DNA from: Escherichia phage PSD2002
Direction: 5' to 3' (one strand)
DNA length: 64,000 bases
Sequence record: OK335775.1
The notes under the pieces are model-generated. The model searched no databases, was not told the DNA's origin, and saw only the letters and a program-made list of their open reading frames with translations. Positions 38,402 through 58,992 of this stretch are shown here, in pieces (the stretch's first letter is position 1; each line of letters begins with the position of its first letter). The position numbers and the translations under genes were made by a program.

Positions 38402-38404
38402 ATA

Positions 38405-40558: not shown

Positions 40559-40585
40559 ACCTTACACAAACATGAGGAGAACATT

Positions 40586-40876: not shown

Positions 40877-40883
40877 ACCCCTA

Positions 40884-40912
40884 AAGGAGAGCATATGCTC
40901 TCCTTTTTTGTT
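40884..40912. terminator. Bidirectional rho-independent terminator
   Basis: aggagagcat-atgctctcct palindrome followed by TTTTTT; separates convergent genes. Confidence 0.7.
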
Positions 40913-42952: not shown

Positions 42953-42960
42953 TATTAATC

Positions 42961-44697: not shown

Positions 44698-45208
44698 TTA
44701 AGATATCCATGATTTTAAGCAATCCTTTGATAGGACCATTAGGACCAGGGATAGCTACAGTAGAAGTTATATCGTCGGCCCATGTAGCAACAAAGGCAGG
44801 CATATCCAGAAAATCTGGTACATCATCACCAAGATAAAGAGATTGTAGTACACTATCAACAGGACCAAATGTTTGAAATGGTTCATGTGATTTAAATTTA
44901 AACGTTTTACCTTGGAACTGGAATTCAAGTCGTTGGCAAATATAAAGGTCATTTAAATTATATGTGAATCCATCTTTAGTTACTTTTTCTTTTAATCGTC
45001 CGTTGAATTCTAAAAGGTGTAAAGCAGCAAAATCTGTTTCTGCTGCAGACAGTCCTTTACAAATGGATTCCATTGTCATATAGAGGGCCTTGTAAGGGTC
45101 CTTTTCATCTTTAACCAATTTCTGGTGTTTAAGACCCAATTTAGGAATGGAAATCTCTTTGTCACCCAGCGTTATTTTCTTGATCGGGAGTATCAGTTTT
45201 AAGTTCAT
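44681..45208 (-). CDS. 28: Baseplate hub distal subunit gp28
   Basis: 175 aa from ATG with GAAGGT RBS (track start 45250 lacks RBS); position between 27 and 29. Confidence 0.65.
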
Positions 45209-46331: not shown

Positions 46332-47080
46332 TTCTTAAGGTCCTTTTCAACCAAAGACAAAGCAATACCGCGTTCGATTGGAATCATCTGCATAATGCTT
46401 TCTAATGAATAATTGTTCTTTACCAGTAAATGGTTTATTTGGTAAAATAAAAATATCTCATCCGGGTTGACTATAAGCTTAAACACCTCTAAAATATCGG
46501 TATACGTAATTGTTCTACGATTACAGCATCCATATTTTAGTTCAAAATTAATAGGGCTAGTTTGTTTGACTATATCCTCTAAAGTGGATAAGTCTATAGC
46601 ATCTATTACGGCTAATTGGTCTTCTTCAGAAAGGTCAGTCCAATTATATTTCCCGTTTTCATCTTCCACGGTTTGGAGGGTGTTCAGAATCAATTCGGAT
46701 TTGTCTTGATATTCTATTTCCGGAAATTTGAATGTTAGCTTCAAGCCGGCCACTTCAATTGTGGGATTATCTAACTTGGTCTGTTTCAAATTGAATAAAA
46801 CTTGTCTATCCTTTTCACACTTACTACAAGTGTATCGGATAGGAATTTTGGTCTTGCCGAGTGATGACGTATAAAGTTCAATGAACATATATGGGCGCCA
46901 TGACATAGGATATTCACCGAAGTATTCTTCCAGTAACTCATCTAAAATTTGTTTTTGCTCTTCAGGTGATTTATTATTCATGTCATTTCGAATCAAAATA
47001 AAATCACGATAATCAGCTACTGTAAAAGGTTTAAATCGGTGGACTCCATCAGGCATTTCACAACGTACTATATTAGCCAT
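46328..47080 (-). CDS. 51: Baseplate hub assembly catalyst gp51
   Basis: 250 aa from [12 protein letters not shown] (track start 47131 lacks RBS and overlaps gene 26 start); late promoter and AAGAGGA RBS upstream. Confidence 0.7.
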
Positions 47081-47100
47081 AGGGTGTCCTCTTATTGATG

Positions 47101-47112
47101 TATTTATAAATA
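47101..47112. promoter_or_regulatory. Palindromic divergent late promoters TATTTATAAATA serving gene 51 (minus) and gene 26 (plus)
   Basis: TATAAATA readable on both strands within a 12-nt perfect palindrome; RBS and ATG on each side. Confidence 0.7.
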
Positions 47113-47130
47113 AGCTTAAAGGAGAAGACA

Positions 47131-47754
47131 ATGAATTATACTTTTGACGTAAAAATTAAAAACAAAACCATAAAATGCAGAGCATTTACCCTCAGAGAGT
47201 ATAAGGACTTGCTCCAAGCTAAATTAGAAGGCAGAATAGAGTCCTTTATCAATGAACTCATTTCGAATTGCACAGATGCTCGTGATTTAAACAAGCAAGA
47301 ATCTGAGCTCCTGGTGATAAACCTGTGGGCCCATTCATTAGCTGAAGTGAATATAGAACGTGAGTGGAGTTGTAGTTGTGGCCGCTCACAGGTTGTCCCT
47401 ATGACACTAACTCGAGCAACATTGGGTAAAGAGCCGGATGTTATTAAAGACTTTGGCAACTTTAAAATTGTTTTCAGATATCCTAAACTCTTTGAAGATA
47501 AAAATAGAGCTATGATGGTCGCAGGGTGTATCGATTATATTTTAACTTCTGCAGGCGAAAAGCTTCTTCTTTCCGATTTAAGCGGTGCGGAACTTGATGA
47601 CCTTTATTCTGTGATAACAGAAAAAGATATAAAAGAAGTTTATGATGCACTAGTCGCCCCTAAGCCTATTTTGGCTATACCTATTTCTTGTGAATGTGGT
47701 GAACACACCGTCCACGTTATTGAGGGACTTAAAGAGTTCTTTAAGGTGATGTAA
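47131..47754 (+). CDS. 26: Baseplate hub subunit gp26
   Basis: 207 aa (T4 208 aa), divergent from 51 as in T4. Confidence 0.75.
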   Translation: MNYTFDVKIKNKTIKCRAFTLREYKDLLQAKLEGRIESFINELISNCTDARDLNKQESELLVINLWAHSLAEVNIEREWSCSCGRSQVVPMTLTRATLGKEPDVIKDFGNFKIVFRYPKLFEDKNRAMMVAGCIDYILTSAGEKLLLSDLSGAELDDLYSVITEKDIKEVYDALVAPKPILAIPISCECGEHTVHVIEGLKEFFKVM

Positions 47755-48143
47755 TGAATATCAATAAAATGTATTCAGATTTAGACCCTGAAATGAGGAC
47801 GTCTTGGAATAGAGACGTCGCTAAAGCTACAGGTGCTCGCGCAGTAAAAAATAGTTTGTTAGGCATTATTACTACTCGCAAGGGTTCGCGCCCTTTTATG
47901 CCTGAATTCGGTTGTGACATCAGCAACCAATTGTTTGAGAATATTACTCCATTAATCACGGATACCATTAAGCGTAATATAGTTTCCGCAGTGCGGAACT
48001 TCGAACCCAGAATTTCTGCTCTAGCTGTAGGTGTGACACCTGTGTACGATGATAACTCGATTATCGTGACCGTTCAGTTTAGTATCGTTGATGACCCAGA
48101 TACATTAGAGCAAATTAGAATCCAGCTCTCACAGAGTGGTTAA
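47754..48143 (+). CDS. 25: Baseplate wedge subunit gp25
   Basis: 129 aa (T4 132 aa); ATGA overlap with gene 26. Confidence 0.8.
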   Translation: MNINKMYSDLDPEMRTSWNRDVAKATGARAVKNSLLGIITTRKGSRPFMPEFGCDISNQLFENITPLITDTIKRNIVSAVRNFEPRISALAVGVTPVYDDNSIIVTVQFSIVDDPDTLEQIRIQLSQSG

Positions 48144-48170
48144 TTGCTGTTCAAATGAATAGTGTATAAT
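48144..48170 (+). promoter_or_regulatory. Possible middle promoter for uvsY
   Basis: MotA-box-like ttgctgtt about 13 nt upstream of -10 tataat. Confidence 0.3.
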
Positions 48171-48201
48171 GGTCCTATGGTTATTACACAGGAAACATGC
48201 G

Positions 48202-48636
48202 ATGAGTAAAGAGATTGAGTACAAGTTGGAGTCGTTTCAAGATGCTTTGGATGAAGATTTAAAGATTGATGGGACTCGTTTACAGTACGAAGTACAGAAC
48301 AACGTTTTGCTGCACAGCAAATGGCTAAGGCTGTATACGAATTGTAAGAAAGAAATAATGAGATTAGAAATCCAGAAAAAGACCTCACTTAAGAAGCGAT
48401 TAGATTTCTACACGGGACGTGGAGAGCCTGGTGATGAGGTTTGTATGGACCAATATGAGAAATCTGAATTAAAGACCGTTATGGCTGCGGATTCTAGTGT
48501 AATTAAAATCGACACATCAATTCAGTATTGGGCTTTATTACAAGACTTTTGTAGTTCAGCACTTGATGCTATTAAGGCGCGTGGTTTTAACCTTAAGACC
48601 ATGCATGAGATGAGACAATTTGAGGCGGGCAAATGA
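48202..48636 (+). CDS. uvsY: Recombination mediator UvsY
   Basis: 144 aa from MSKEIEYK; ...LQYE.QNNV.L.SKWL...RLE.QKK..LK.RLD.Y.GRG...MD.YEKSE.KTV...D....DTS.QYW..L.DFCS.ALDAIK.RGF... matches T4 UvsY. Confidence 0.85.
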   Translation: MSKEIEYKLESFQDALDEDLKIDGTRLQYEVQNNVLLHSKWLRLYTNCKKEIMRLEIQKKTSLKKRLDFYTGRGEPGDEVCMDQYEKSELKTVMAADSSVIKIDTSIQYWALLQDFCSSALDAIKARGFNLKTMHEMRQFEAGK

Positions 48637-48737
48637 GTTATCGTAAACCAGTCATCAATAAATGCCCTAAACCATCTAAAGAGCGGATGGACGAACTCCA
48701 AAAATTCATTAATGCTGCTTTAGCAAGTAATAAATAG
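48633..48737 (+). CDS. Possible small protein (34 aa, uvsY.-1 position)
   Basis: ATGA overlap with uvsY stop; not in ORF track. Confidence 0.3.
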   Translation: MSYRKPVINKCPKPSKERMDELQKFINAALASNK

Positions 48738-48765
48738 GTATGTAAGTTAAACTAAGGAGACAATC

Positions 48766-48933
48766 ATGTCAGATAAGATTTGCGTTGTCTGTAAAACTCC
48801 AATCGATGCTGCATTGGTTGTTGAAACAGAAAAAGGTCCGGTTCATCCGGGCTCATGCTATAATTACGTTCAAAGCCTGCCGGTTACGGAAAACACTGAA
48901 GAACAGCTGAACGAAACCCAATTACTACTTTAG
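48766..48933 (+). CDS. Small Cys-containing protein (55 aa, uvsY.-2 position)
   Basis: AAGGAGA RBS; MSDKICVVCKTPID...HPGSCYNY (CxxC...C, zinc-ribbon-like); followed by terminator. Confidence 0.4.
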   Translation: MSDKICVVCKTPIDAALVVETEKGPVHPGSCYNYVQSLPVTENTEEQLNETQLLL

Positions 48934-48962
48934 TCTAGTGTGTATAGCCATTTATGGTTATT

Positions 48963-48990
48963 GGCCCTTCCGAAAGGTTGGGCCTTTTTT
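48963..48990 (+). terminator. Rho-independent terminator
   Basis: ggcccttcc-gaaa-ggttgggcc stem followed by TTTTTT. Confidence 0.65.
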
Positions 48991-48992
48991 GT

Positions 48993-49220
48993 TTAGAAAT
49001 CTTCCTCTTCCTCGTCGTCCATCGACTCCAATTCAGCTCTCTTACCAGCCAATGCATCACGCACGCTAATATCATCCGAATCACGAAGTTCGGCTTCCTT
49101 ACTACGAGTTTTGTAATACTTTTCCAATTCCTTCAGACCATCCATAGTCTGACAAGAACCAATTTTAGCCATGAAGCTTTCAATAGATGCTTCTTGAATA
49201 ACTTCTTTAAAGGTTTTCAT
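48993..49220 (-). CDS. UvsW.1-like small acidic protein
   Basis: 75 aa, acidic C-terminus (DDEEEEDF); lies downstream of uvsW as T4 uvsW.1 does, but here separated from uvsW by an endonuclease gene. Confidence 0.5.
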   Translation of the reverse strand: MKTFKEVIQEASIESFMAKIGSCQTMDGLKELEKYYKTRSKEAELRDSDDISVRDALAGKRAELESMDDEEEEDF

Positions 49221-49912
49221 AAATCCACCTGTTTCATTAAATTTCTGATTTTGTGACGAGAAAGACCCGTGGCTTCAGAAGCTTGTTTCATCGAGCCATA
49301 TTCAACACCATTTATAGTAACCTTTTTAGCTGCCGGGTTTTTAGATGGGTCTTTATATCTTTCTTTAGCTTTATCTGAAATTTTCTTAGAAGCTTCAGGG
49401 GTATGATTTTTACCATACATGCCGTTGCCGGCACCGGAATTTCTTTCAGATATAGCTTGACATTGTTCTTGCGTGTATTTATAAGGATTCGCTTTTTTAG
49501 TTGCAGATATTTTATCGCCCCATAAAATAGGTCTACCTTTAAATAAATTGCTCATATATTCTTTATGAGCTTCAGTGTGGTGCTTACCGTAAAATGGATT
49601 TCCTTCTCCAGTCTGAAGAATTGCCAATTGCCTACGTTCCCACCCATATGATTTACTAAATTGTCTTTTATGAGTCCTGGAGCTCATACCCATAGAAATA
49701 ACAGCTTTTATGAGACCGTAGTTATTTGGATAAATTTTGGCCAGTAATTTATGAGCTATAAAATGTTCTTCTGGGGTAAGGCGTACTCTATTTTCTTGAG
49801 TATCAGGCCCACCAATACACGACGGGATAATATGATGAGATTCTGTATAACCCATAGGTTTAGAAGCCTTTCGGCTTCTAATTAAATTGTCATAAATTTT
49901 TTGATAATTCAA
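49217..49912 (-). CDS. Free-standing HNH homing endonuclease (I-TevIII/Mob-like)
   Basis: 231 aa starting at TTG overlapping uvsW TGA; N-terminus MNYQKIY; HNH core GYTESHHIIPSCIGGPDTQENRVRLTPEEHFIAH; two NUMOD3-like repeats (G.GNP.YGKHHT.EA, G.GNGMYGKNHT.EASKKIS); C-terminal HTH-like INGVEYGSMKQASEATGLSRHKIRN. Confidence 0.8.
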   Translation of the reverse strand: MNYQKIYDNLIRSRKASKPMGYTESHHIIPSCIGGPDTQENRVRLTPEEHFIAHKLLAKIYPNNYGLIKAVISMGMSSRTHKRQFSKSYGWERRQLAILQTGEGNPFYGKHHTEAHKEYMSNLFKGRPILWGDKISATKKANPYKYTQEQCQAISERNSGAGNGMYGKNHTPEASKKISDKAKERYKDPSKNPAAKKVTINGVEYGSMKQASEATGLSRHKIRNLMKQVDL

Positions 49913-51405
49913 ATTTGGACCTCTTTCATGACATAATTAAATTTCTCGTCTGCGTACCGTTGAATACGTTCTAATCCATGTTTTAATGCATAATTTAGGT
50001 GAATGTATTTCTTTTTAGAATCTTTGGATTTAGGTTTCACCCCCATGTCATCGATGATGTCAAAAACTTGGGCTGTTGTTTTAGATTTGTGTTTACGTAA
50101 AACCCTTCCTATGGTTTGCAGTACCGTTACCTTGGATTTTACTGGATGGGCAAATACAACGTGGTGAAGGTTCTTAACGGAAATACCTGTAGAGAACACA
50201 CCATAACTTGCCACAACAATAATACCCTTACCATTTTCCGCCATTACCTTCAGAGCATTACGCGTTTCGGTATTAACTTCACCCGATACGTAATAAACTT
50301 CTTTATGTTGCTCTTTAACCATTTCAAAAAGAGTTTTACCGTGTTCGATGTTTTTAAACATCAGGAATACGTTCTCTTCTTTCTTAGCGAGTTTAACAGC
50401 TAAATTAGCAACCCATTTATTACGACGAGTAGCCTTAGTAATGACCTTGATTTCTGATTGGTAATCTTTACCTTTCATTTTAACCGTGAATTCGTCTGGG
50501 TATCGAAGGAAAATACTGTTGATTTTAAGGTCAGTAACCTGTCCTTCTTCCATTAATTGGGAGGTGGATACTGGCTTAAACACATCACCAAACAAGCCCA
50601 TATATTGCATTAAATTAGCTTTACCATCTTTTAAAGAACCCGACAAACCGAATTTAAACATACAGTTGGTTAGGCCTTCGATGATAGTAGAAATAGATTT
50701 ACCTGTAGCCAAATGGCATTCGTCGTTCATAAACATACCGAACTGAGCAAACCATTCTTTAGGTTGCTTGATAGCGGTTTGATAAGTTGAAACATAAATC
50801 ATTGCATCGGAATCACGAGCAGTACCTGAACGAATACCAAGCATTGCGGCTTTAGGGAACAGACGATAATCGATGAAGTCATTAATCATCTGGTCGACAA
50901 GTGCAGTAGTAGGAACTAATATAAGGATTTTACCTTCATAGTTCTCAACGTAATATCGACTCAGGAGCGCCTGGATTAATGATTTACCTGCGGATGTAGG
51001 TAAATTCAGAATTGCACGACGTTTTGTCAGGCCGTTGTATACGGCTTCATTCTGATACCAATGAGGCTCAATCTTGGTAGACCCTGAATAAATTTCTTGA
51101 GAAGCCACCCATGAGTCAAAATCTTCACGAGAAATATCTTCCTGTTCAAGAATACGTGGGTCAATCCACAGAGAGTATTCAAATTGTTCAGCGAACTTTT
51201 TAATTTGAGGAACCAATCCATATGGCAGTTTACGGTTATAATCCAGAAGGCGAATACGTCCGTCCCATTGACCATAACGAAATTTAGGGTTGAATTTATA
51301 TCCATCAGCTTCAAAGCTAAAATAGTCTCTGAGTTCGTAGAATGTAGATTCATCGCATTCAATACGGACATGACTAAAATTATCAAAATGTACTTGAATT
51401 TGCAT
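49909..51405 (-). CDS. uvsW: DNA helicase UvsW
   Basis: 498 aa; SF2 helicase motifs (PTSAGKS Walker A, DECH box) and end-to-end similarity to T4 UvsW. Confidence 0.9.
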   Translation of the reverse strand: MQIQVHFDNFSHVRIECDESTFYELRDYFSFEADGYKFNPKFRYGQWDGRIRLLDYNRKLPYGLVPQIKKFAEQFEYSLWIDPRILEQEDISREDFDSWVASQEIYSGSTKIEPHWYQNEAVYNGLTKRRAILNLPTSAGKSLIQALLSRYYVENYEGKILILVPTTALVDQMINDFIDYRLFPKAAMLGIRSGTARDSDAMIYVSTYQTAIKQPKEWFAQFGMFMNDECHLATGKSISTIIEGLTNCMFKFGLSGSLKDGKANLMQYMGLFGDVFKPVSTSQLMEEGQVTDLKINSIFLRYPDEFTVKMKGKDYQSEIKVITKATRRNKWVANLAVKLAKKEENVFLMFKNIEHGKTLFEMVKEQHKEVYYVSGEVNTETRNALKVMAENGKGIIVVASYGVFSTGISVKNLHHVVFAHPVKSKVTVLQTIGRVLRKHKSKTTAQVFDIIDDMGVKPKSKDSKKKYIHLNYALKHGLERIQRYADEKFNYVMKEVQI

Positions 51406-51419
51406 AAGTAATTCTCAGT

Positions 51420-51427
51420 TATAAATA
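51420..51427 (+). promoter_or_regulatory. Late promoter TATAAATA for inh-hoc
   Basis: Exact TATAAATA about 33 nt upstream of ATG at 51461. Confidence 0.6.
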
Positions 51428-51433
51428 TAGTTA

Positions 51434-51441
51434 TATTTATA
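51434..51441 (-). promoter_or_regulatory. Late promoter (TATAAATA on minus strand) for uvsW
   Basis: Plus-strand tatttata about 30 nt upstream of uvsW start codon. Confidence 0.5.
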
Positions 51442-51460
51442 CACCAACAAGAGACTAATT

Positions 51461-52132
51461 ATGGATACTCAATATATTGAAGAGCTTCGTGCACTCGAAG
51501 ATAAAAAAGAAGCTAAAGCTAAGTTAATCGAATACGGCGAACAGTTCGGTTTAAAACTTAAGAAAACCCGTTCGTTTGATAATTTGATTATCGATATCTC
51601 TGAAGGCCTTAAAGCCTTGGCTGACGAACCACTCCCAGAAACCGAAGGGTTGTCCATTTCTGATTTGATTGATGCTGCCGACGAACTTACAGGTGCTAAC
51701 GAATTTGTTGATGGTGCTGAACCAGCTAAAGAAGAAGCCACCCTGTTGTTCGATGCCCCTGAGGCTGCAGTAGAAGTCGTTGAGGTAGCCGAACTTCCTA
51801 AGGTAGAGATTATCGAAGAGGATGTTCCATTTGACGAAGAGAAATTCAAAGGGGCTATAGCCAAGGTTGTTGAATCTGAAAAACCTGTATTCTCTTTACC
51901 TGAAAACTTCAGTCCTAATCTTTTGCTTATCGGTAAGAACCCAGGTTATTGCACCGTTCCTTGGTGGATTTACCAATGGATTTCTGAGACTCCGGATTGG
52001 AAAGAACGTCCAACTGCTTTCCAACATCCTTCTGCCCACCAAACATTATTTAGTCTGATTTATTACATTAATCGTAATGGTTCAGTATTAGTACGTGAAA
52101 CTCGTAACTCATCTTTTGTCACTTTAAAATAA
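51461..52132 (+). CDS. inh: Probable Inh (prohead protease inhibitor) homologue
   Basis: 223 aa acidic protein in the T4 inh position between uvsW and hoc; identity by synteny only. Confidence 0.45.
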   Translation: MDTQYIEELRALEDKKEAKAKLIEYGEQFGLKLKKTRSFDNLIIDISEGLKALADEPLPETEGLSISDLIDAADELTGANEFVDGAEPAKEEATLLFDAPEAAVEVVEVAELPKVEIIEEDVPFDEEKFKGAIAKVVESEKPVFSLPENFSPNLLLIGKNPGYCTVPWWIYQWISETPDWKERPTAFQHPSAHQTLFSLIYYINRNGSVLVRETRNSSFVTLK

Positions 52133-52141
52133 GGGTTTATT

Positions 52142-52990
52142 ATGGCTTATACCGTAGATATGGCTCCTTTGGCGGCTACGGCCGTTATTGGAGCAACAAC
52201 CAATTTCACTGCGACCGGTTCCGGTGCTGCAGCTGAAGGTACCGAATCATTTGTCTGGACCGTTGATGGCGTTCCTCAATCTTCTGTGACTGCTGCAATG
52301 GATTATGTTGCTGTTGGCCCGGCAGGCAGCAAGACTATTAAAGTTGTTGCAACAACTACACCGGCGGACGGCGAACCAGAAACAGCTGAAGCCGAAACAA
52401 CTTTAACTATCCAGAATAAAACCATTTCCGGTGTTTCTGTGACATTAACCCCAGCTTCGATTAATGTTCCGGAAGGCACTCCAGCTTCTTTTAAAGCGGA
52501 TGTGGTCGGCGCTCCTGCTGGTGCTACTTTTGCCTATTCTTGGAAGAAAGACGGTTCTCCTGTAGTTGGCACCACGGATACTCTAGCAATCGATACAAGC
52601 ACTGAAGGTTCACAGGTTATTGAAGTTTCTGTTGTGGTTTCGGCGACTGATTATAACCCGGCGACTGTCACAAAAACCGGTAATGTAACAGTCACGGCTA
52701 AAGTCGCACCGGTTCCGGATGGCGAATTACCTTACGTTCATCCACTCCCTGTTCGTAATTCAGCATATATTTGGGTTGGTTGGTGGGTTATGGATGAAAT
52801 CCAGAAAATGACTCTTGAAGGCAAAGACTGGAAAACAGATGACCCGGATAGCCCGTATTATTTGCACCGATATACACTTCAAAAAATGATTACCGACTAT
52901 TCAGAGGTTGATGTACAAGAATCTCGTAATGGCCGAATTATTCATCGCACCGCTTTAGAAGCTGGTATTATATACGATTACATTTATTAA
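52142..52990 (+). CDS. hoc: Outer capsid protein Hoc (shortened, about two Ig-like domains plus capsid-binding C-terminus)
   Basis: 282 aa; Thr/Val-rich Ig-like repeats; C-terminus LPYVHPLP.R.SAYIW.GWWVMDEIQKMT.EGKDWKTDDPDS.YYLHRYTLQKM matches T4 Hoc capsid-binding domain. Confidence 0.8.
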   Translation: MAYTVDMAPLAATAVIGATTNFTATGSGAAAEGTESFVWTVDGVPQSSVTAAMDYVAVGPAGSKTIKVVATTTPADGEPETAEAETTLTIQNKTISGVSVTLTPASINVPEGTPASFKADVVGAPAGATFAYSWKKDGSPVVGTTDTLAIDTSTEGSQVIEVSVVVSATDYNPATVTKTGNVTVTAKVAPVPDGELPYVHPLPVRNSAYIWVGWWVMDEIQKMTLEGKDWKTDDPDSPYYLHRYTLQKMITDYSEVDVQESRNGRIIHRTALEAGIIYDYIY

Positions 52991-52993
52991 TAA

Positions 52994-53016
52994 TGGGCCT
53001 TGCGGCCCATTTTGCA
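52994..53016 (+). terminator. Rho-independent terminator after hoc
   Basis: atgggcc-ttgc-ggcccat followed by tttgcatt. Confidence 0.6.
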
Positions 53017-53044
53017 TTAAAGTACAAAATTCCTGTTTACAAGT

Positions 53045-53074
53045 TAAAAATTCTATGTTAAGATGGGTTTACCA
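53045..53074 (+). promoter_or_regulatory. T4-type early promoter
   Basis: gtttac + ~18 nt + taagat. Confidence 0.45.
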
Positions 53075-53093
53075 ACTCAACGAGAGAATTGTT

Positions 53094-53303
53094 ATGGATA
53101 AGGTTAAAGTACATTTTTTACACGAATCTGGGTTGAATTTTATAGAAATTGCTAAAAAAATGGGCGGGACCGCTAAGGACATGGCCAAAGCATGGGTTGA
53201 TGTAGAACAAGCCAAGGCCAAATTTAAAGCGAAAGAAAAGGTTGTTTATCGTAAAAGATTGAACAACAAGGTTCGGCGCAAAGCGCGTTCTAGTTCAAAG
53301 TAA
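53094..53303 (+). CDS. Hypothetical small basic protein, possible helix-turn-helix
   Basis: 69 aa from ATG downstream of promoter; SGLNFIEIAKKMGGTAKDMAKAW resembles an HTH; Lys/Arg-rich C-terminus. Confidence 0.4.
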   Translation: MDKVKVHFLHESGLNFIEIAKKMGGTAKDMAKAWVDVEQAKAKFKAKEKVVYRKRLNNKVRRKARSSSK

Positions 53304-53417
53304 TATGCTTTAAATTTAGGTGTGATATAATGGGTCTAGGTCCTTCCGTTAAACCATTTGGCTTGGTGACAGAAGACTACTAGCTCTTCTATTTAATTAT
53401 ATTTATTATGGTGATTT

Positions 53418-54425
53418 ATGTTCAAGAAATATAGCAGTCTCGAAAACCACTACAACAGTAAGTTTATCGAAAAACTCCGTACTAACGGTTTGACTGGTGG
53501 TGAATGGGTAGCACGTGAGAAGATTCATGGAACCAACTTTAGTTTAATCATAGAACGTGACGCAGTCACATGCGCCAAGCGCACTGGCCCTATCCTCCCT
53601 GCTGAAGATTTCTATGGTTATGAAATTTTACTTAAGAACTATGCTGATTCTATTAAATCTGTTCAACATCTAATCGAATCGATTAATTACCAGTCATATC
53701 AGATTTACGGCGAATTCGCTGGGCCAGGTATCCAGAAGAATGTGGACTATGGTGATAAAGACTTTTATGTGTTCGATATCCGAGTTACTAAAGAAGATGG
53801 CTCAGAATCTGTTCTAACCGATACATTGATGGAAGCCTTCTGTATTATCCATAAGTTTAAGGTAGCTCCATGTCTGGCCACTGGTAGCTTTGAAGACCTT
53901 ATTAAACTTCCTAATGATTTTGATTCAGTTGTTCCTGATTATAATTTTGCAGTGGATAACGCAGGCTTAACTATTGCAAACTCAACCGATTTTATTCCTA
54001 AGGTAGAAGGTAAGGTATTCACGGCTGAAGGCTTTGTATTGAAACCTGATGTTCCTACCTGGCTTCCAAACGGAAATCGTGTGGCGATTAAATGTAAGAA
54101 CTCTAAATTCAGCGAGAAGAAAAAGTCTGATAAGCCTATTAAAGTTGCAGTGGTATTGTCCCAAGACGATATGGATTTGATGTGGCAATTCACCGATTAT
54201 GTGACTGTTAACCGCATTAACAATGTCATCAGTAAGATTGGCGAAGTATCGCCGAAGGATTTCGGAAAGGTGATGGGCTTGACAGTCCAGGATATCCTTG
54301 AAGAAGCCGCCCGTGAAGAATTGGAATTAACTGATGCGGAAAATCCCGTTGAAGTTAAAAAGCAGCTCGTTGAGTGCGTAAAAGAAACATTAAGACATGT
54401 ATGGATTGAACTAGTATCCAAATAA
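53418..54425 (+). CDS. rnlB: RNA ligase 2
   Basis: 335 aa; [12 protein letters not shown]...[10 protein letters not shown] (ligase lysine motif KxHG) ...[13 protein letters not shown]... matches T4 Rnl2. Confidence 0.85.
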
Positions 54426-54431
54426 ACGATA

Positions 54432-54459
54432 AAGGGACCTTACGGTCCCTTTTATTTTT
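54432..54459. terminator. Bidirectional rho-independent terminator between rnlB and gene 24 paralogue
   Basis: agggacc-ttac-ggtccct followed by TTTTATTTTT; U-rich on both strands. Confidence 0.7.
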
Positions 54460-55732
54460 CTAAAGGCGGTAATTTTACGCCGAGATAAGAACTCAATTGA
54501 CTTTGATTAGCCATTTTGTCCATATCAGAACCATCAATAATGCGGGCTTCTTTATCGTCCTTAGCGACGGTATAAGGGTTTGCAGACAATGCATAACGAG
54601 CAAGCAATGCTACTGTAGGTTGTAAGCTTTCCGGGTCAACAATAACCTTAAATTCACCAACTGAAGTATCACCTTCTTCGTCAACCACATTCAAACCTTC
54701 CGTATAAGGCGCATAATATAAAGATGCGACCGTCTGTCCTTCACCCATCTGGGCATTTACACCAACAATAACATAATCACATGGACTATTCATATCAGCA
54801 TAAAGTGGTAGGCCATTCTTTAATATACCATAAGCCAATTCGTCCTGGTCTTCCTTTTTCTCAACCCAACCAGAGGCGGCGAGAATAGCAGCACAACGAG
54901 AACTAGCTACTGCATAAGTCCCGGCAAAAGAAGTCTGTCGTTGGACGGCAGAGTTCATCTCACACATATAATAATATAATGTGCGAGCACGGTCCTGGGC
55001 ATTATCGTAGCGAGGGTTGGTAAGGTCTAATACACCCTTTTCAGAAACACCCTGGACTTTAAAACGAGAGCTCACGGTAATTAATGACTGTAATACATCC
55101 TTATTAATTTCTTCTGCCATTTGAATGCCTAGCAGATTTTCAACAAAATTAGGAGCATTAAACCCGTTAGATTCTAGGTCTTGGGCTAATTCGACTGTCA
55201 ATGAAGTTTTCAGTTTACGTGATTTAACTTCAGATTGCCATTTGTCGATACGGAATCCGGTTTCAGCAATTTCAGGATGGCCTTGTTCAAATTTAGAAGT
55301 AATAGCAGCATCCGACACCATACGGATATGGCCGGCTGCCACTGCTTCAGAAATAACTTCGCTGAGGTTGGTTTCTGTGGTTCCGGCGAAAGGAGATGCT
55401 TCTAGAACTTTAAACACTACGCTTTCAAACTGGAACATATCACCGACCGCATAAGCTGTAGATGAATCAGTAAATTCTGGAATATTTTCACGTTCCGTCA
55501 TACCAATCTGGCCCGCAAATGTTGCTCCACCAAGATAAGTCATTTTGTCGTCAGGATTCAGTACACGTACCCCATACAGAGCAGCAACCGGTTGATTTGT
55601 TTTTTGTTCAGCAACTAGGGCTTTAAAGATTCGTTTATTAGTTGCTTGGGTGTATGAAAGAAGAGCAGGACGGCCAACCGAGCTGGCAGCCGTCAATGTG
55701 GATTCTTTAATTAGGTCTACAATCTTAGACAT
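54452..55732 (-). CDS. Capsid vertex protein gp24 paralogue (second copy)
   Basis: 426 aa; about 50 percent identical along whole length to the adjacent gp24 (shared blocks SRKLKT.LTVELAQD.ESNGF.AP.F, INKDVLQSLITVS, YAPYTEGL, RYALSANPYTVAKDDKEAR.ID). Confidence 0.8.
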   Translation of the reverse strand: MSKIVDLIKESTLTAASSVGRPALLSYTQATNKRIFKALVAEQKTNQPVAALYGVRVLNPDDKMTYLGGATFAGQIGMTERENIPEFTDSSTAYAVGDMFQFESVVFKVLEASPFAGTTETNLSEVISEAVAAGHIRMVSDAAITSKFEQGHPEIAETGFRIDKWQSEVKSRKLKTSLTVELAQDLESNGFNAPNFVENLLGIQMAEEINKDVLQSLITVSSRFKVQGVSEKGVLDLTNPRYDNAQDRARTLYYYMCEMNSAVQRQTSFAGTYAVASSRCAAILAASGWVEKKEDQDELAYGILKNGLPLYADMNSPCDYVIVGVNAQMGEGQTVASLYYAPYTEGLNVVDEEGDTSVGEFKVIVDPESLQPTVALLARYALSANPYTVAKDDKEARIIDGSDMDKMANQSQLSSYLGVKLPPLEK

Positions 55733-57015
55733 TAATCAGCCTCGTAAATAATTGCCGGAAGTTTAACGCCAACCAGATAAGACATATTGCTCTGTCCAGC
55801 CATTAAATCCATATTGGTTGCATCGATAACACGAGCTTCTTTATCGTCTTTAGCCACGGTGTACGGGTTAGCTGATAGTGCATAACGAACCATCAGAGAA
55901 ATAGAAGGTTGTAATGAATCCGGGTCAACAATAACCTTATAAGCACCGACGTGTTCTTGGTCATCTAAATCTAAGCCTTCGGTATAGGGAGCGTAGAAAA
56001 TAGAACCGACAACTTCATTACCGCCGTAATTCTCTTTAACACCAACGGTAACATAATCTAATGGACTGTTAACGTCACAAAACAGAGGCAGACCATTCAA
56101 CAAATATCCGTATGCAGTTTCCGGAAGCCAATTATTATCTTCGGGTTTATGTTTTAACCAGCCAGAACCTGCAAGCATTGCAGCCACACGACTTGAAGCC
56201 ACAACAAACGTGCCAGAATAAGAAGTAGTTTTCTGGATTTCAGAATTCATCTCACAAACGAGTTCATAAAGTTTACGTGCAGATTCAGGAGCACTGTCAT
56301 AAGACAAATCGATGATGCCGTTATCAGATACACCAGTAACTTTATAACGTTTGGATACGGTTATTAGAGATTGCAGAACGTCTTTATTAATTTCATCTGC
56401 CATTACTGTAGCCAAGAGGTCTTCTAAGAACGCCGGCGCGTCAAAGCCATTTGATTCCATATCCTGCGCTAATTCTACAGTCAAAGCCGTCTTCAATTTA
56501 CGGGTCTTAACCGGAGCATTCCATTTATTAACCTGGAATACAGCATCAGAGATTTCTACATCACTCGCTTCAAATTTAGTGGTATGGGCAGCATCAGGAA
56601 CCAGACGACATGTTAATGACACTAAACCTTCTTGAAGAGCATCAGCCAATTCTGTGGCGCTAGTGGACGCGAGTGGGCTTGCTTTAAGAGCCTTATAAAC
56701 CACATTCTGGTACTTGAAATATTCACCCTGAGCAATCGCCTGGGCCTTATCTGTGAGTTCTGGGATAGTTTCACGGTCTTTAGAACCAACTTCACCACCA
56801 TAAGAGGCACCTGTCTGGAAACTAAATTCATTATCAGGGGTAAGATATTTGACACCATACAGTGCAGCAATAGGCTGGCTAGTACGTTGTTCGGCGATAA
56901 TATCACGGTAAATCAATTTGGTTGTAGCACGGGTCAAAGCAACAAGATTAGGGCGACCCAATGAGTTGCTGGAAGTAGTTGTTGACTCGCGCAGTAATTC
57001 GTTAATCTTTGCCAT
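55732..57015 (-). CDS. 24: Capsid vertex protein gp24
   Basis: 427 aa; MAKINELLRESTTT...GRPNLVALTRATTKLIY... matches T4 gp24; late promoter upstream. Confidence 0.9.
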   Translation of the reverse strand: MAKINELLRESTTTSSNSLGRPNLVALTRATTKLIYRDIIAEQRTSQPIAALYGVKYLTPDNEFSFQTGASYGGEVGSKDRETIPELTDKAQAIAQGEYFKYQNVVYKALKASPLASTSATELADALQEGLVSLTCRLVPDAAHTTKFEASDVEISDAVFQVNKWNAPVKTRKLKTALTVELAQDMESNGFDAPAFLEDLLATVMADEINKDVLQSLITVSKRYKVTGVSDNGIIDLSYDSAPESARKLYELVCEMNSEIQKTTSYSGTFVVASSRVAAMLAGSGWLKHKPEDNNWLPETAYGYLLNGLPLFCDVNSPLDYVTVGVKENYGGNEVVGSIFYAPYTEGLDLDDQEHVGAYKVIVDPDSLQPSISLMVRYALSANPYTVAKDDKEARVIDATNMDLMAGQSNMSYLVGVKLPAIIYEAD

Positions 57016-57043
57016 TGCGCTTTCCTTATTGAGGGTATATGTT

Positions 57044-57051
57044 TATTTATA
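57044..57051 (-). promoter_or_regulatory. Late promoter (TATAAATA on minus strand) for gene 24
   Basis: Plus-strand tatttata about 30 nt upstream of gene 24 start. Confidence 0.65.
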
Positions 57052-57057
57052 AAAGTT

Positions 57058-57087
57058 GTTTACAGCAAGATTCTCACATGTTACTAT
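57058..57087 (+). promoter_or_regulatory. T4-type early promoter
   Basis: gtttac + 17-18 nt + tactat then GAGGAG RBS. Confidence 0.55.
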
Positions 57088-57116
57088 AGACATATCAAAA
57101 CATGAGGAGATTAAAA

Positions 57117-57383
57117 ATGAACAAGTTAAACTTTATTCGTACTACTCTTTCCGCTCTTGATAAAGACATCAAAGCTCTGGTAGAAAAATTCGGTAACAAT
57201 CCTAATGGTAATGCAGTGAATGCCTTAGTTAAGAAATACGAAGCCATGGCTTATGCTACCGACTTCTGGTGGAACGGTGAATACTCTACCCATACCAAAG
57301 ACAAATCTGGTAACTGGCTGAAAATCCAAGAAAATCGTATTGACTTCCGTGATATCATCAACCGTCGAGTTAAGATTGCATAG
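57117..57383 (+). CDS. Hypothetical early protein inserted between late genes 23 and 24
   Basis: 88 aa from ATG after GAGGAG RBS; own early promoter and terminator; T4 has segD at this position. Confidence 0.5.
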   Translation: MNKLNFIRTTLSALDKDIKALVEKFGNNPNGNAVNALVKKYEAMAYATDFWWNGEYSTHTKDKSGNWLKIQENRIDFRDIINRRVKIA

Positions 57384-57398
57384 TACAGAAACAAGAAT

Positions 57399-57428
57399 GG
57401 GAGACCGAAGTCTCCCATAATAAGGTTA
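57399..57428. terminator. Bidirectional terminator (gene 23 and small early gene)
   Basis: gggagac-cgaa-gtctccc stem-loop with U-rich flanks on both strands. Confidence 0.7.
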
Positions 57429-57432: not shown

Positions 57433-58992
57433 TTAGATACCTTTAACATATACACGACGGAAGTAACCATTCAGACCAAGGCTGTTAACGATGTCAGGCA
57501 TACCGCTCTGAATACGTTTGGTAGGAGCCTGTGCAGACGGGTCAGCGAACGGGTTGATACCGATACCGTAACGAGTTTTGAAGCCCATTACCGGTTGGAA
57601 GTTCTTCGGATCGGAACCACGCAGCGGGGTCAGTGCAACGTATGGAGCATAGTAGATACCTGCGTCCATTTCGTTAGCGCCTTTATAACCGATGGTGAAG
57701 TAATCGGAACGTGCATACTGGTCGATGTAAACGCGATATTTACCACCAAGAACACCGGCAAATACTGCTTTGGTTGTGTCAACGTTGAAACCTTGACCCA
57801 GACCTTGAGCTGCATAACTTACAGAAGTATCAACTGCAGCCAGTACGTTAACTACGTTACGGGAAGCGATGATGAAGTTACCAGCACCACGACCGGTCTG
57901 ACGAGCGATTTCGGCTGCTTCTTTATCAATCTGGAACAGAAGGGCTTTAAAGCTCTCACCGGCCCAACGAGCACCACGGATATCAATCGGGTCCTGGAAG
58001 TCAAACACACCAGCTTTAGCGCCAACGGTGTTGGTCATACCAGATTTACCAACCTGTGCAGAGTAGTTAATCCAATCGATAACTTCACGGTTGATTTCGA
58101 GCATAATTTCGGTAGCAAGGATACCGGACAGTTCAGCATCTGCATCCATACCGTGTACTGCACGAAGGTCCTGTGCCAGTTCGATAGAGTAGCTTGCTTT
58201 CAGCTGACGGGATTTAGCTTCGATAACTTGTTTGTCGATGCGGAAGCCCATTTCGTTCCACGGGTTATCGGTAGAACCGTTAAAGCCTTCCTGAAGTTCG
58301 GCGATAGAAGTAGCCATACCTTCAGCCAATTCAGCCAACTTACCAGCTTCAATCAAAGCGGTAACAGCAACATCCAGTTTAGCGGCATCAGTAGCAGCAG
58401 CATCAACGGTTACGGCTTCGACAGCCTGGAAGTGTGCAGCACCGGTAGCTTCGAAGAAGTGAGAATAAATTTTACCAACTTCCAGAACTTTGCTTGCAGC
58501 CAGTGCTTCGAAAGTTTCAGCAGCACCCTGACCAGAGAACATAGCGTCTGGAGAATACATCGGATGGAAAGCTTCTTTAGCGCCAGAAGCGATAGGGTCT
58601 TTACCATAAACTGCACGAAGGGCAAATACCTGGCCGGTAGGGTTATTCAGAGGCTGAACACCACAAATATCAAAAGCAATCAGATGAGGAATAGCACGAC
58701 GAACCATACCCATTACTGCCGGCCCAATCTGAGTTACAGCACCAGAAGTCTGGCCAGCTGCGATATTGGTAGCATCATAACCGTGGTCACCACCAATTTC
58801 AGCTTCGGTCAGGAAAGAACCAAATGCTTCAGAGATTTTTTCATCACGATATTCCGGAGCAGTCAGGATGTCTTGTTCCTGGTTTTCGAAAATTTTAGCG
58901 ATGATAGCTTGTTTAGAAGCACCCACGATTTCAGGAAGGGCTTCGTTTTCCAGCAGAGCGGACCATTTTTGAACTAATGCATTCTTTTTCAT
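57433..58992 (-). CDS. 23: Major capsid protein gp23
   Basis: 519 aa; near-identical blocks to T4 gp23 (EIGGDHGY, ATNIAAGQTSGAVTQIGPAVMGMVRRAIP, MGFKTRYGIGINPFA, FRRVYVKGI). Confidence 0.95.
   Translation of the reverse strand: MKKNALVQKWSALLENEALPEIVGASKQAIIAKIFENQEQDILTAPEYRDEKISEAFGSFLTEAEIGGDHGYDATNIAAGQTSGAVTQIGPAVMGMVRRAIPHLIAFDICGVQPLNNPTGQVFALRAVYGKDPIASGAKEAFHPMYSPDAMFSGQGAAETFEALAASKVLEVGKIYSHFFEATGAAHFQAVEAVTVDAAATDAAKLDVAVTALIEAGKLAELAEGMATSIAELQEGFNGSTDNPWNEMGFRIDKQVIEAKSRQLKASYSIELAQDLRAVHGMDADAELSGILATEIMLEINREVIDWINYSAQVGKSGMTNTVGAKAGVFDFQDPIDIRGARWAGESFKALLFQIDKEAAEIARQTGRGAGNFIIASRNVVNVLAAVDTSVSYAAQGLGQGFNVDTTKAVFAGVLGGKYRVYIDQYARSDYFTIGYKGANEMDAGIYYAPYVALTPLRGSDPKNFQPVMGFKTRYGIGINPFADPSAQAPTKRIQSGMPDIVNSLGLNGYFRRVYVKGI

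What the first reader, a model, noticed from the sequence alone, without database searches (positions are those of the whole stretch)
57058..57428. Early-type gene cassette embedded between late head genes 23 and 24
An 88-aa ORF on the opposite strand to the flanking structural genes has its own early promoter, GAGGAG RBS and a bidirectional terminator. T4 carries the segD endonuclease at this position; here an unrelated small gene occupies it, suggesting the 23-24 junction is an insertion hot spot.
Basis: partly seen in the sequence, partly recalled or inferred. Interest (0 to 1): 0.45.

Follow-up and report, generated by a model that had tools for sequence, protein, structure and literature searches.

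The report
Early accessory gene between capsid genes
A small, self-contained early gene of unknown function sits backwards between the two main capsid genes of a JS98-type T4-like coliphage. It is a known hypothetical gene, but its slot is also where the selfish endonuclease gene segD lands, and that explains why T4's segD faces the wrong way.

Summary
The window is a Dhakavirus (JS98/Bp7-like) genome. ORF 57117..57383 (+, 88 aa) lies in the 417-nt gap between gene 24 and gene 23, both on the minus strand.

- **Coding:** dN/dS is 0.08-0.12. It equals JS98 orf173 (PHROG 6003, unknown function) and is found in about 233 phage records.
- **Promoter:** GTTTACA-N17-TACTAT belongs to this phage's own early-promoter/leader class (11 sites against 0.86 expected). 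It is conserved in four genera, including upstream of T4 segD, whose transcript is classed early in published T4 omics.
- **Terminator:** the "bidirectional terminator" is the conserved gene-23 terminator. Its UUCG loop and U-tract are on the minus strand only.
- **Slot states:** empty (~85 nt), small ORF, small ORF+segD, or segD alone (T4).
- **Transfer:** ORF+segD has moved as a unit from Dhakavirus-type into Mosigvirus-type backgrounds. The segD+ phages silently recode the last codons of gene 23.
- **The protein:** basic, a three-helix bundle with a beta-hairpin and no informative fold match. It is dispensable (pseudogene in RB69). Homologues sit in early-type small-gene arrays of rV5-like phages.

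I read it as an early accessory, host-directed gene cassette, a new member of a known kind. Interest is modest.

The parts
55732..57015 (-). Gene 24a (head vertex protein, 427 aa), left flank of the slot
   Evidence: ORF list. Annotated as 24a/capsid vertex in JS98 and IME08. It is 55% identical to the tandem paralogue 24b at 54452..55732.
57044..57051 (-). T4-type late promoter box TATAAATA for gene 24 (reads tatttata on the + strand), back to back with the early promoter
   Evidence: Read from the sequence. It is invariant in all six aligned phages, T4 included, and present in empty-slot phages. Its assignment as a late promoter rests on the established T4 late-promoter consensus.
57058..57087 (+). 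Early sigma-70-type promoter: GTTTACA (-35), 17-nt spacer, TGn, TACTAT (-10)
   Evidence: Promoter scan. The motif class is enriched 11 against 0.86 expected. The hexamers and the 17-nt spacing are conserved in window/JS98/IME08, VR7, HX01 and T4 while the spacer sequence diverges. It fits the T4/PST PeSL promoter consensus TTTACW-N17-TAYWAT (PMC4122927). The homologous T4 promoter precedes segD, whose transcript is classed early (PMC9697503 Table S2).
57088..57116 (+). Stereotyped early leader (TAGACATATCAAAACATGAGGAG...) with the Shine-Dalgarno sequence GAGGAG at 57104..57109
   Evidence: The same leader follows other early promoters at 14309, 15015, 15305 and 22228. SD-ATG spacing is 7 nt.
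57117..57383 (+). 88-aa protein-coding gene (JS98 orf173 family, PHROG 6003): basic (pI 9.6), 10.2 kDa, soluble, a three-helix bundle with a beta-hairpin
   Evidence: phrog_6003 at E = 6.8e-50. dN/dS is 0.08-0.12. Homologues down to 27-40% identity keep the same length and the conserved G31-N32, N35 and Q71. The AF2 model has pLDDT 89.8.
57397..57418 (-). Gene-23 terminator hairpin: AUGGGAGAC-UUCG-GUCUCCCAU followed by UCUUGUUUCU on the - strand. It also forms at the 3' end of the ORF transcript, but without a U-tract
   Evidence: The terminator scan finds it on the - strand only. It is present with compensatory stem changes in T4, RB14, VR7, Marfa and Q7622, including phages with an empty slot.
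57433..58992 (-). Gene 23 (major capsid protein, 519 aa), right flank. Its last ~9 codons (57433..57462) are the stretch that is silently recoded in segD-carrying relatives
   Evidence: ORF list. Codon comparison of 15 phages.

Best explanation
The feature is a self-contained early-expressed accessory-gene cassette lodged in the 23/24 intergenic region of a JS98-type (Dhakavirus) T4-like phage.

Proposed mechanism:
1. Right after infection, unmodified host sigma-70 RNA polymerase starts at GTTTACA-N17-TGtTACTAT (57058-57087). This is one copy of the phage's stereotyped early promoter/leader module (PeSL-like). [Inferred from motif class, conservation and the T4 segD transcript class.]
2. It transcribes rightwards, antisense to the late head operon, through an 88-aa ORF with a strong SD.
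3. The RNA ends at, or is 3'-stabilised by, the hairpin that is primarily the gene-23 terminator. [Inferred.]
4. The product is a small basic cytoplasmic protein, a three-helix bundle with a beta-hairpin. It is non-essential and lineage-variable. Most likely it acts by binding a host or host-defence component (host take-over or counter-defence), not in head assembly. [Inferred, low confidence; the target is unknown.]
5. Independently of what the protein does, the promoter-to-hairpin slot is the landing site of the free-standing GIY-YIG homing endonuclease gene segD. segD inserts 3 nt after the ORF's stop and is expressed from the ORF's promoter. ORF+segD is then transferred between genera as one conversion tract. 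[Shown for the DNA; homing itself is inferred.]
6. T4 represents the derived state, in which only promoter, leader, segD and hairpin remain. That accounts for segD being the only T4 homing-endonuclease gene antisense to its neighbours.
For: - **Coding and selection:** dN/dS 0.08-0.12. The family spans about 233-237 phage records.
- **Early promoter:** motif enrichment of 11 against 0.86 expected, with 10 of 11 sites on the + strand in front of ATG-initiated ORFs, most with a Shine-Dalgarno sequence. The leader is shared with other early units. The -35, the -10 and the 17-nt spacing are conserved across four genera while the spacer diverges.
- **T4 counterpart:** T4 has TTTACA-17-TATTAT with TGn (10/12) upstream of segD. 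The segD transcript is classed 'early' and SegD protein is detected by MS (PMC9697503 supplement).
- **Dispensability:** most Tequatrovirus, Kanagawavirus, Marfavirus and Cronus have an empty slot (~82-97 nt). The RB69 copy carries a stop and a frameshift.
- **Not tied to head genes:** homologues sit in long same-strand arrays of small unknown genes in rV5-like phages and after the tail gene J in a siphovirus-like contig.
- **segD association and transfer:** IME08, UP19, 04086, LF82-3 and F2 carry ORF+segD. LF82-3 and F2 flanks are 94-100% HX01-type, while their ORF is 92-98% IME08-type and only 42-53% HX01-type.
- **Recoding:** the last ~9 codons of gene 23 are silently recoded in segD+ genomes, identically in UP19, LF82-3 and F2.
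- **Orthology:** IME08 SegD is 56% identical to T4 SegD over its full length.
Against: - There is no direct expression data for this ORF in any phage. 'Early' rests on promoter class and on T4 segD, and the T4 study's 'early' transcript class is broad.
- The + strand lacks a U-tract after the hairpin, so where the early transcript ends is unknown.
[quoted passage not shown] 2018, known to me only as a title cited in PMC10448857). Homing by the Dhakavirus-type SegD is therefore unproven, and ordinary recombination could have moved the tract.
- The direction of evolution (ORF ancestral and lost, or inserted) is unresolved.
Confidence: 0.6

Rival explanations
1. The ORF is incidental and the functional product is the early antisense transcript. 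Lacking a U-tract on its strand, RNA from the early promoter reads through the hairpin into gene 23 and acts as 'anti-late' RNA that damps premature capsid-gene expression or affects the 23/24 mRNA.
For: The terminator scan finds the T-rich tail on the - strand only. After the hairpin the + strand reads AUAAUAAGGUU. The promoter and hairpin are retained where the ORF is degraded (RB69) or replaced (T4). Early anti-late RNA is an established T4 phenomenon (my own knowledge).
Against: The ORF is clearly maintained as a protein: dN/dS ~0.1 and length and motifs conserved down to 27-40% identity. It has a strong SD at optimal spacing. Family members occur in unrelated phages with no capsid gene downstream. 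Most T-even relatives have no promoter in the slot at all, so antisense control of gene 23 is not a conserved requirement.
Confidence: 0.1
2. The 88-aa protein is a head-morphogenesis accessory factor (for example an assembly chaperone or regulator for gp23/gp24, perhaps linked to the duplicated gene 24). Its position between the capsid genes would then be functional.
For: Strict synteny between 23 and 24 in three Tevenvirinae genera. Dhakavirus and Gaprivervirus, which have the closest alleles, also have two gene-24 paralogues.
Against: It is on the opposite strand with an early rather than late promoter. Mosigviruses have the ORF with a single gene 24. It is a pseudogene in the viable laboratory phage RB69. 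It is absent from T4 and most Tequatroviruses. Homologues lie in early-type gene arrays of rV5-like phages, which have unrelated capsid modules.
Confidence: 0.07
3. The small ORF is a functional part of the segD mobile element (for example a helper, regulator or self-immunity factor for SegD), rather than an independent accessory gene.
For: ORF and segD are adjacent, co-oriented and separated by 3 nt. They were co-transferred into Mosigvirus-type backgrounds.
Against: Most ORF-bearing genomes lack segD (window, JS98, VR7, HX01). T4 has segD without the ORF. Distant family members have no neighbouring gene with a nuclease domain on record. Co-transfer is what co-conversion of flanking DNA predicts anyway.
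Confidence: 0.08
4. The ORF is a chance open frame in an AT-rich spacer and the promoter-like and RBS-like strings are coincidental.
For: Single sigma-70-like matches are no more frequent than in shuffled sequence. Many spurious ORFs of similar length exist on the antisense strands of neighbouring genes.
Against: dN/dS is 0.08-0.12 with dS up to saturation. Protein-level conservation reaches 27-40% identity in unrelated phages. The AF2 fold is confident at pLDDT 89.8. The promoter class is strongly enriched.
Confidence: 0.01

Closest known systems
JS98 orf173 / VR7 ORF190c / PHROG 6003 (hypothetical protein of Dhakavirus, Gaprivervirus and Mosigvirus)
   Same: It is the same gene: 98% identical to JS98 orf173, 100% to Bp7 and IME540, and a full-length PHROG match at E = 6.8e-50. 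Position and orientation between 23 and 24 are the same.
   Different: Nothing differs. The family simply has no assigned function, expression class or structure in the sources I could consult.
PeSL (promoter-early stem-loop) bounded ORFan cassettes of T4-type phages (Arbiol et al. 2010, PMC2839356; Comeau et al. 2014, PMC4122927)
   Same: A small ORF of unknown function is preceded by an AT-rich region, a sigma-70-like early promoter fitting TTTACW-N17-TAYWAT, an SD and a start codon, and it is bounded by a GC-rich stem-loop. The promoter/leader is a repeated sequence in this genome, and a canonical PeSL with a near-identical UUCG hairpin sits at 14254-14328. The cassette shows presence/absence between relatives.
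   Different: In a canonical PeSL the stem-loop lies immediately upstream of the promoter on the same strand, and the elements cluster in hyperplastic regions. Here the stem-loop is downstream of the ORF, is oriented for the opposite strand (it is the gene-23 terminator), and the unit sits inside the conserved head module. No second PeSL or mini-circle evidence is available.
T4 segD locus (free-standing GIY-YIG homing endonuclease gene between genes 23 and 24)
   Same: Same slot and same antisense orientation. The late promoter/early promoter/leader on one side and the UUCG terminator hairpin on the other are homologous. In IME08-like phages an orthologous segD (56% identity) shares the slot with the ORF.
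   Different: The window has no segD. Its cargo is an unrelated 88-aa protein with no nuclease motif.
Small early host-take-over or counter-defence proteins of T-even phages (for example AsiA, Arn, Dmd, Alc)
   Same: Similar size (60-170 aa), early promoter, soluble, dispensable or lineage-variable, with no cellular homologues. The comparison is with what I know of these proteins.
   Different: No sequence or fold similarity to any of them was detected. No target, toxicity or phenotype is known. A 2026 screen of 45 AV110 (Mosigvirus) early proteins picked candidates by homology to T4 early proteins, so it would not have picked up this T4-absent gene, and none of its named hits is this gene.

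Membership tests
PHROG 6003 / JS98 orf173 family | Full-length significant match to the family profile | tested here: met
   E = 6.8e-50, residues 1-88 on profile positions 1-88 of 90.
PHROG 6003 / JS98 orf173 family | Conserved synteny (between genes 23 and 24, opposite strand) in Tevenvirinae members | tested here: met
   Seen in JS98, IME08, VR7, HX01, EP32B, UPEC01, UP19, F2 and LF82-3.
T4-type early (sigma-70) transcription unit | -35 GTTTAC(A/T), 17-nt spacer, -10 TAnnAT, AT-rich upstream region | tested here: met
   GTTTACA-17-TACTAT with TGn and an upstream TATTTATAAAAG. The class is enriched 11 against 0.86 expected. It fits TTTACW-N17-TAYWAT (PMC4122927).
T4-type early (sigma-70) transcription unit | Transcript appears within the first minutes of infection and is made by unmodified host RNA polymerase | not testable with these tools
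   The only evidence is indirect. T4 segD, behind the homologous promoter, is classed as an early transcript (PMC9697503 Table S2).
PeSL (promoter-early stem-loop) cassette | Composite element: a stem-loop immediately upstream of an early promoter, followed by SD and start codon, all on the same strand | tested here: not met
   Upstream of the promoter is the gene-24 late promoter, not a stem-loop. The only hairpin is downstream of the ORF and carries its U-tract on the other strand. A canonical PeSL exists elsewhere, at 14254-14328.
PeSL (promoter-early stem-loop) cassette | Promoter/leader sequence repeated around the genome, providing homology for shuffling | tested here: met
   TGNTACTATAGACNTATCAA is found 6 times against 0.03 expected. 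The six units are aligned.
PeSL (promoter-early stem-loop) cassette | Excision as mini-circles by recombination between flanking PeSLs | not testable with these tools
   This needs inverse PCR on infected cells (method of PMC2839356).
Homing-endonuclease landing site (free-standing seg-type HEG locus) | HEG present or absent at an identical intergenic position in otherwise collinear relatives | tested here: met
   segD is absent in the window, JS98 and HX01 and present in IME08, UP19, 04086, LF82-3, F2 and T4, always between the ORF or leader and the hairpin.
Homing-endonuclease landing site (free-standing seg-type HEG locus) | Co-conversion of flanking markers with the HEG | tested here: met
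   LF82-3 and F2 have Mosigvirus-type flanks (94-100% to HX01) but a Dhakavirus-type ORF allele (92-98% to IME08) next to segD.
Homing-endonuclease landing site (free-standing seg-type HEG locus) | Target-site polymorphism (silent changes) protecting HEG+ genomes | tested here: inconclusive
   Silent substitutions cluster in the last ~9 codons of gene 23 in segD+ phages. However, the SegD cleavage site is unknown to me, Gapriverviruses without segD share part of the pattern, and Marfa shares TTT AGA.
Homing-endonuclease landing site (free-standing seg-type HEG locus) | Endonuclease cleaves HEG-less alleles and is preferentially inherited in crosses | not testable with these tools
   [quoted passage not shown] The Dhakavirus-type enzyme is untested.
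Known anti-defence or host-take-over protein families | Sequence or fold similarity to a characterised member | tested here: not met

The most novel reading that the evidence does not exclude
The 88-aa protein is a previously unrecognised early host-take-over or counter-defence effector, and a homing endonuclease drives its spread among T-even genera. In this reading segD uses the ORF's early promoter and carries the ORF (plus a silently recoded gene-23 terminus, the presumptive SegD target) into new genomes by co-conversion. The same architecture would explain T4's long-noted 'promoterless, antisense' segD.
Probability: 0.3. Interest if true: 0.55.

Novelty: new member of a known kind. Interest (0 to 1): 0.35.

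Why it matters
The gene itself is an already annotated hypothetical protein, so the locus is not a discovery in itself. Three things are useful.

1. It can now be assigned with reasonable confidence to the early, accessory class. That makes it a sensible candidate for host-take-over or anti-defence screens, which have so far missed it because they select candidates by homology to T4.
2. Comparison across genera gives a simple account of an oddity in the T4 literature. segD is the only homing-endonuclease gene antisense to its neighbours, and no promoter of its own was found for it. Here it occupies a conserved divergent early transcription slot whose promoter T4 still carries, and T4 omics data show that segD is expressed.
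3. The cross-genus transfer of ORF+segD and the clustered silent changes at the end of gene 23 give a concrete, testable prediction of where Dhakavirus-type SegD cuts. They also give an example of a homing endonuclease carrying an accessory gene into the middle of the conserved capsid module.

Tried and rejected
- **Function by sequence:** Pfam gave only DUF5380 at E = 0.11, below cut-off. NCBIfam and PADLOC gave only sub-threshold noise. A PDB profile search gave a best E of 0.15. None was informative.
- **Exhaustive profile search:** 1.84 billion representatives yielded only 10 hits. The two long ones (P0017, P0020) are repeat proteins matching short low-complexity stretches and were discarded.
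- **Paralogues and RNA families:** no paralogue of the ORF in the window. No Rfam family in the region.
- **Variable C-terminus:** tblastn rows covered only residues 1-72, which suggested a variable C-terminus. I rejected this because direct alignment shows full-length conservation.
- **Short direct repeat at the cassette edges:** gtttACAGcAAGA at the left, gtACAGaaACAAGA at the right, with a single copy in the empty Kanagawavirus site. This is suggestive of microhomology-mediated deletion or insertion, but the junctions do not match exactly and I did not rely on it.
- **Literature:** I found no expression or functional data for the ORF. The AV110 early-protein screen selected candidates by homology to T4 early proteins, so it would not have picked up this gene. 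The Sokolov 2018 SegD paper and the Miller 2003 T4 genome review are not in the library.
- **F2 as a Tequatrovirus example:** I rejected this. Its 23/24 flanks are 98% HX01-like.
Full report
**What the window is.** The region matches JS98/Bp7-type T4-like coliphages (genus Dhakavirus). The best hits are IME540 at 99.4% and LHE83 at 99.2%. On the minus strand lie gene 23 (major capsid protein, 57433..58992), gene 24a (vertex protein, 55732..57015) and a tandem paralogue 24b (54452..55732). rnlB follows on the plus strand.

**Checking the observation.**
- The 88-aa ORF is 57117..57383 on the plus strand.
- GAGGAG is at 57104..57109, 7 nt before the ATG.
- The promoter-like site is (G)TTTACA at 57058/9..57064, a 17-nt spacer, TG at 57079-80 and TACTAT at 57082..57087.
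- The hairpin is at 57397..57418, with a 9-bp stem and a 4-nt loop.

An upstream in-frame ATG at 57102, which some database records use, precedes the RBS. Homologues have a stop codon there, so the 88-aa start is the supported one.

**Is it a real gene?** Yes. It is JS98 orf173 and matches PHROG 6003 end to end (E = 6.8e-50, unknown function). tblastn finds it in 233 phage records. Pairwise dN/dS against JS98, IME08, LF82-3 and VR7 is 0.08-0.12, with synonymous sites close to saturation for VR7. Length and a set of residues (K3, F6, L11, L14, G31, N32, N35, Q71) are kept down to 27-40% identity.

**Is the promoter an early promoter?**
- A lone sigma-70-like hit is not significant: 2 found against 2.9 expected.
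- The stricter T4-type pattern GTTTAC-N17-19-TANNAT occurs 11 times in the 64-kb window against 0.86 expected, and 0 of 100 shuffles reach 11.
- Ten of the 11 sites are on the plus strand, each 15-50 nt upstream of an ATG-initiated ORF, most with a Shine-Dalgarno sequence. One of them lies 354 nt upstream of rnlB, separated from it by a small ORF.
- The -10 box and leader, TGNTACTATAGACNTATCAA, recur six times against 0.03 expected. The slot therefore carries a copy of this phage's stereotyped early promoter/leader module.
- The module fits the TTTACW-N17-TAYWAT consensus reported for T4/PST PeSL elements (PMC4122927).
- Across window/JS98/IME08 (Dhakavirus), VR7 (Gaprivervirus), HX01 (Mosigvirus) and T4 (Tequatrovirus), the -35 hexamer is invariant, the spacer is always 17 nt although its sequence diverges, and the -10 is TACTAT, CATAAT, TACTAT and TATTAT respectively.
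- In T4 this promoter (10/12 match, with TGn) sits in front of segD. In the T4 time-resolved omics study, segD is classed as an early transcript and a middle protein, and SegD is detected by mass spectrometry (PMC9697503 Table S2 and data tables).

That is indirect but consistent support for early expression of whatever sits in this slot. The study's 'early' class is broad, and no data exist for the ORF itself.

**The divergent late promoter.** The string tatttata at 57044..57051 is TATAAATA on the minus strand, which is the T4 late-promoter box for gene 24. It is invariant in all phages compared, including those with an empty slot. The early and late promoters are thus back to back.

**The 'bidirectional terminator'.** The hairpin folds on both strands, at -14.8 and -15.2 kcal/mol. 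The minus strand reads AUGGGAGAC-UUCG-GUCUCCCAU followed by UCUUGUUUCU, that is, a C(UUCG)G tetraloop plus a U-tract, and the scan calls a terminator on that strand only. The plus strand has a CGAA loop and an A-rich tail.

The same element follows gene 23 in T4, RB14, VR7, HX01, RB69, Q7622 and Marfa, whether or not the slot holds any gene, and the stem shows compensatory changes: GGGAACC/GGTTCCC in T4, GGGACC/GGTCCC in RB14, GGGAGAGC/GCTCTCCC in Marfa. It is the gene-23 terminator. For the ORF transcript it can at most act as a 3' hairpin or a weak stop.

**Comparative genomics of the slot.** A blastn survey with both flanks (1,490 records matched), followed by inspection of representative loci, shows four states.
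1. **Empty, about 82-97 nt.** Only the late promoter and the hairpin are present. This is the state in most Tequatroviruses (RB14, AR1 and others), Kanagawavirus Q7622, Marfa and Cronus.
2. **Small ORF, about 417 nt.** Dhakavirus, Gaprivervirus (64-67% aa identity) and Mosigvirus (33-36%).
3. **Small ORF plus segD, about 1.1 kb.** IME08, UP19, 04086 (segD intact but unannotated), LF82-3 and F2. segD starts 3 nt after the ORF's stop, on the same strand.
4. **segD alone, 814 nt.** T4, T4T and PST. segD follows the homologous promoter and leader directly.

In RB69 the ORF is a pseudogene, with an in-frame stop and a 1-nt deletion, and is annotated as two tiny ORFs. The promoter and hairpin are intact.

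**Cassette transfer.** LF82-3 has gene 24 and gene 23 flanks that are 94-100% identical to Mosigvirus HX01. Between the RBS and the hairpin, however, it is 92-98% identical to Dhakavirus IME08 and only 42-53% identical to HX01. F2 behaves the same way: its flanks are 98% HX01-like, its ORF is 92% and its segD 90% IME08-like. Its record labels it Tequatrovirus, but this region is Mosigvirus-like. So ORF+segD has moved between genera as a single tract with breakpoints at the shared regulatory elements.

All segD-carrying phages also show clustered silent substitutions in the last ~9 codons of gene 23.
- UP19, LF82-3 and F2 share TAC TTT AGA CGC GTC TAC GTT AAA GGA ATT TAA.
- segD-less phages have TAC TTC CGT CGT GTA TAT GTT AAA GGT ATC TAA.
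- T4 has the TTT AGA part.
- The protein (…YFRRVYVKGI) is unchanged.

This is the pattern expected for a homing-endonuclease target that is protected in HEG+ genomes, but I could not check it against a mapped SegD site. VR7 and UPEC01 (no segD) share GGA ATT, and Marfa shares TTT AGA, so it remains an inference. IME08 SegD is 56% identical to T4 SegD over its full length.

**Bearing on T4.** A review of T4 mobile elements singles out segD as the only homing-endonuclease gene oriented against its neighbours. It states that no segD-specific promoter was found and that expression may be vanishingly low (PMC2988022). The comparison here suggests a simple reading. segD is co-oriented with the unit it landed in, an antisense early transcription slot, and T4 retains that slot's promoter and leader. 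The later omics data, with an early transcript and detected protein, agree. I do not know whether this has been said in papers I could not access (Sokolov et al. 2018; Miller et al. 2003).

**The protein.** It is 10.2 kDa with pI 9.6 and GRAVY -0.65, has no Cys and no hydrophobic segment. AF2 with 16 diverse sequences gives pLDDT 89.8: helix 3-25, helix 31-47, a beta-hairpin at 52-61/67-71 and helix 77-87. The invariant G31-N32 and N35 lie in the turn between helices 1 and 2.

Outside the T-even group, the family lies in two contexts.
- In long same-strand arrays of small unknown genes in 141-kb rV5-like contigs, in the Vequintavirinae record ABPH49, and in a similar 35.5-kb contig of undetermined type. 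A T7 gene 0.6-like protein is one neighbour.
- Between the tail gene J and the replication module in a siphovirus-like contig.

These are accessory-gene contexts, and the small-gene arrays look early-type; none is a capsid-assembly context.

**Most likely mechanism.** Host RNA polymerase fires the early promoter on infection. The 88-aa basic protein is made in the first minutes and acts in the cytoplasm on a host or defence component. Late in infection the slot is flanked, and possibly traversed, by late transcription of 23 and 24.

- Shown: the gene is real and under selection, it carries an early-class promoter, it is dispensable, and it is horizontally shared.
- Inferred: the timing, the end of the transcript, and above all the function.

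I put the architectural and evolutionary account at about 0.75 and the host-directed binder role at about 0.35, for an overall confidence of 0.6. The rivals are an antisense-RNA role, a head-assembly role, a segD helper, and a chance ORF. They are weighed in the rival section, and none fits the distribution and selection data as well.

**Comparison with known kinds.** The unit works like the PeSL-bounded ORFan cassettes described for T4-type phages, and it shares their promoter/leader repeat. It fails the defining layout, however, because no stem-loop lies upstream of the promoter, and it sits inside the conserved head module where such elements were said to be rare (PMC4122927). It also meets three of five criteria for a free-standing homing-endonuclease locus: presence/absence at an identical site and co-conversion are met, target polymorphism is inconclusive, and the enzymology is untestable here.

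**Verdict.** The gene is an already catalogued hypothetical protein, so I call it a new member of a known kind (an early accessory cassette or homing site). The added value is modest: an expression class for the family, an explanation for T4 segD's orientation and promoter, and a predicted SegD target. Interest 0.35.

Noticed in passing
window 54452..57015 (- strand): There are two tandem gene-24 (head vertex) paralogues, 24a and 24b, 55% identical, with 24b starting at the last base of 24a. JS98, IME08 and VR7 have the same duplication. T4, RB69 and HX01 have one copy.
   Followed up: partly
window 57433..57462 (last ~9 codons of gene 23); L001, L013, L018, L019, L020: segD-carrying relatives have clustered purely silent substitutions here, including CGT to AGA and TAA to TGA. 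The pattern is identical in UP19, LF82-3 and F2, and T4 shares TTT AGA. This may be the SegD recognition or immunity site.
   Followed up: partly
L009 8211-8633 (RB69, reverse strand): The RB69 copy of the small ORF is a pseudogene, with an in-frame stop and a 1-nt deletion relative to HX01. It is annotated as two mini-ORFs (ORF188c and ORF189c). The promoter and hairpin are intact.
   Followed up: yes
window 14254..14328, 14995..15034, 15284..15324, 22208..22247, 40528..40557: The window has repeated early promoter/leader modules. The 29-nt promoters at 14289 and 14995 are identical. A canonical PeSL (GGGAAGAC-UUCG-GUCUUCCC hairpin, T-run, promoter) sits at 14254-14328, and its hairpin nearly matches the gene-23 terminator.
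   Followed up: partly
L019 (phage F2, NC_054913): The record's taxonomy says Tequatrovirus, but its gene 23/24 flanks are 98% identical to Mosigvirus HX01 and only 87% to T4.
   Followed up: partly
L020 1571-2233 (phage 04086): An intact segD reading frame lies in an unannotated 735-nt gap between the small ORF and gene 23.
   Followed up: yes
L001 143-1330 (IME08): IME08 has an extra 'tail fiber-like protein' gene between gene 24b and rnlB that the window and JS98 lack. This is another indel point at the edge of the head module.
   Followed up: no
L004 3720-3790 (T4, upstream of segD, reverse strand): T4 has TTTACA-17-TATTAT with TGn directly upstream of segD, although a 2010 review states that no segD-specific promoter was found. 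The second ATG of the annotated T4 segD (MFK-MKYLIY) aligns with the start codon of the small ORF and with the IME08 SegD start.
   Followed up: partly
P0013, P0021 (database proteins): The family member P0013 carries an evidently wrong source name ('NADPH-dependent curcumin reductase CurA'). P0021 (160 aa) is a chimera containing a 30-residue fragment of the ORF, probably an assembly artefact.
   Followed up: no
window 57061..57073 and 57385..57398; L011 ~935-955: A short imperfect direct repeat sits at the two edges of the cassette (tttACAGcAAGA and gtACAGaaACAAGA). The empty Kanagawavirus site has a single ctACAGaaACAAGA. This may be a trace of microhomology-mediated gain or loss.
   Followed up: no
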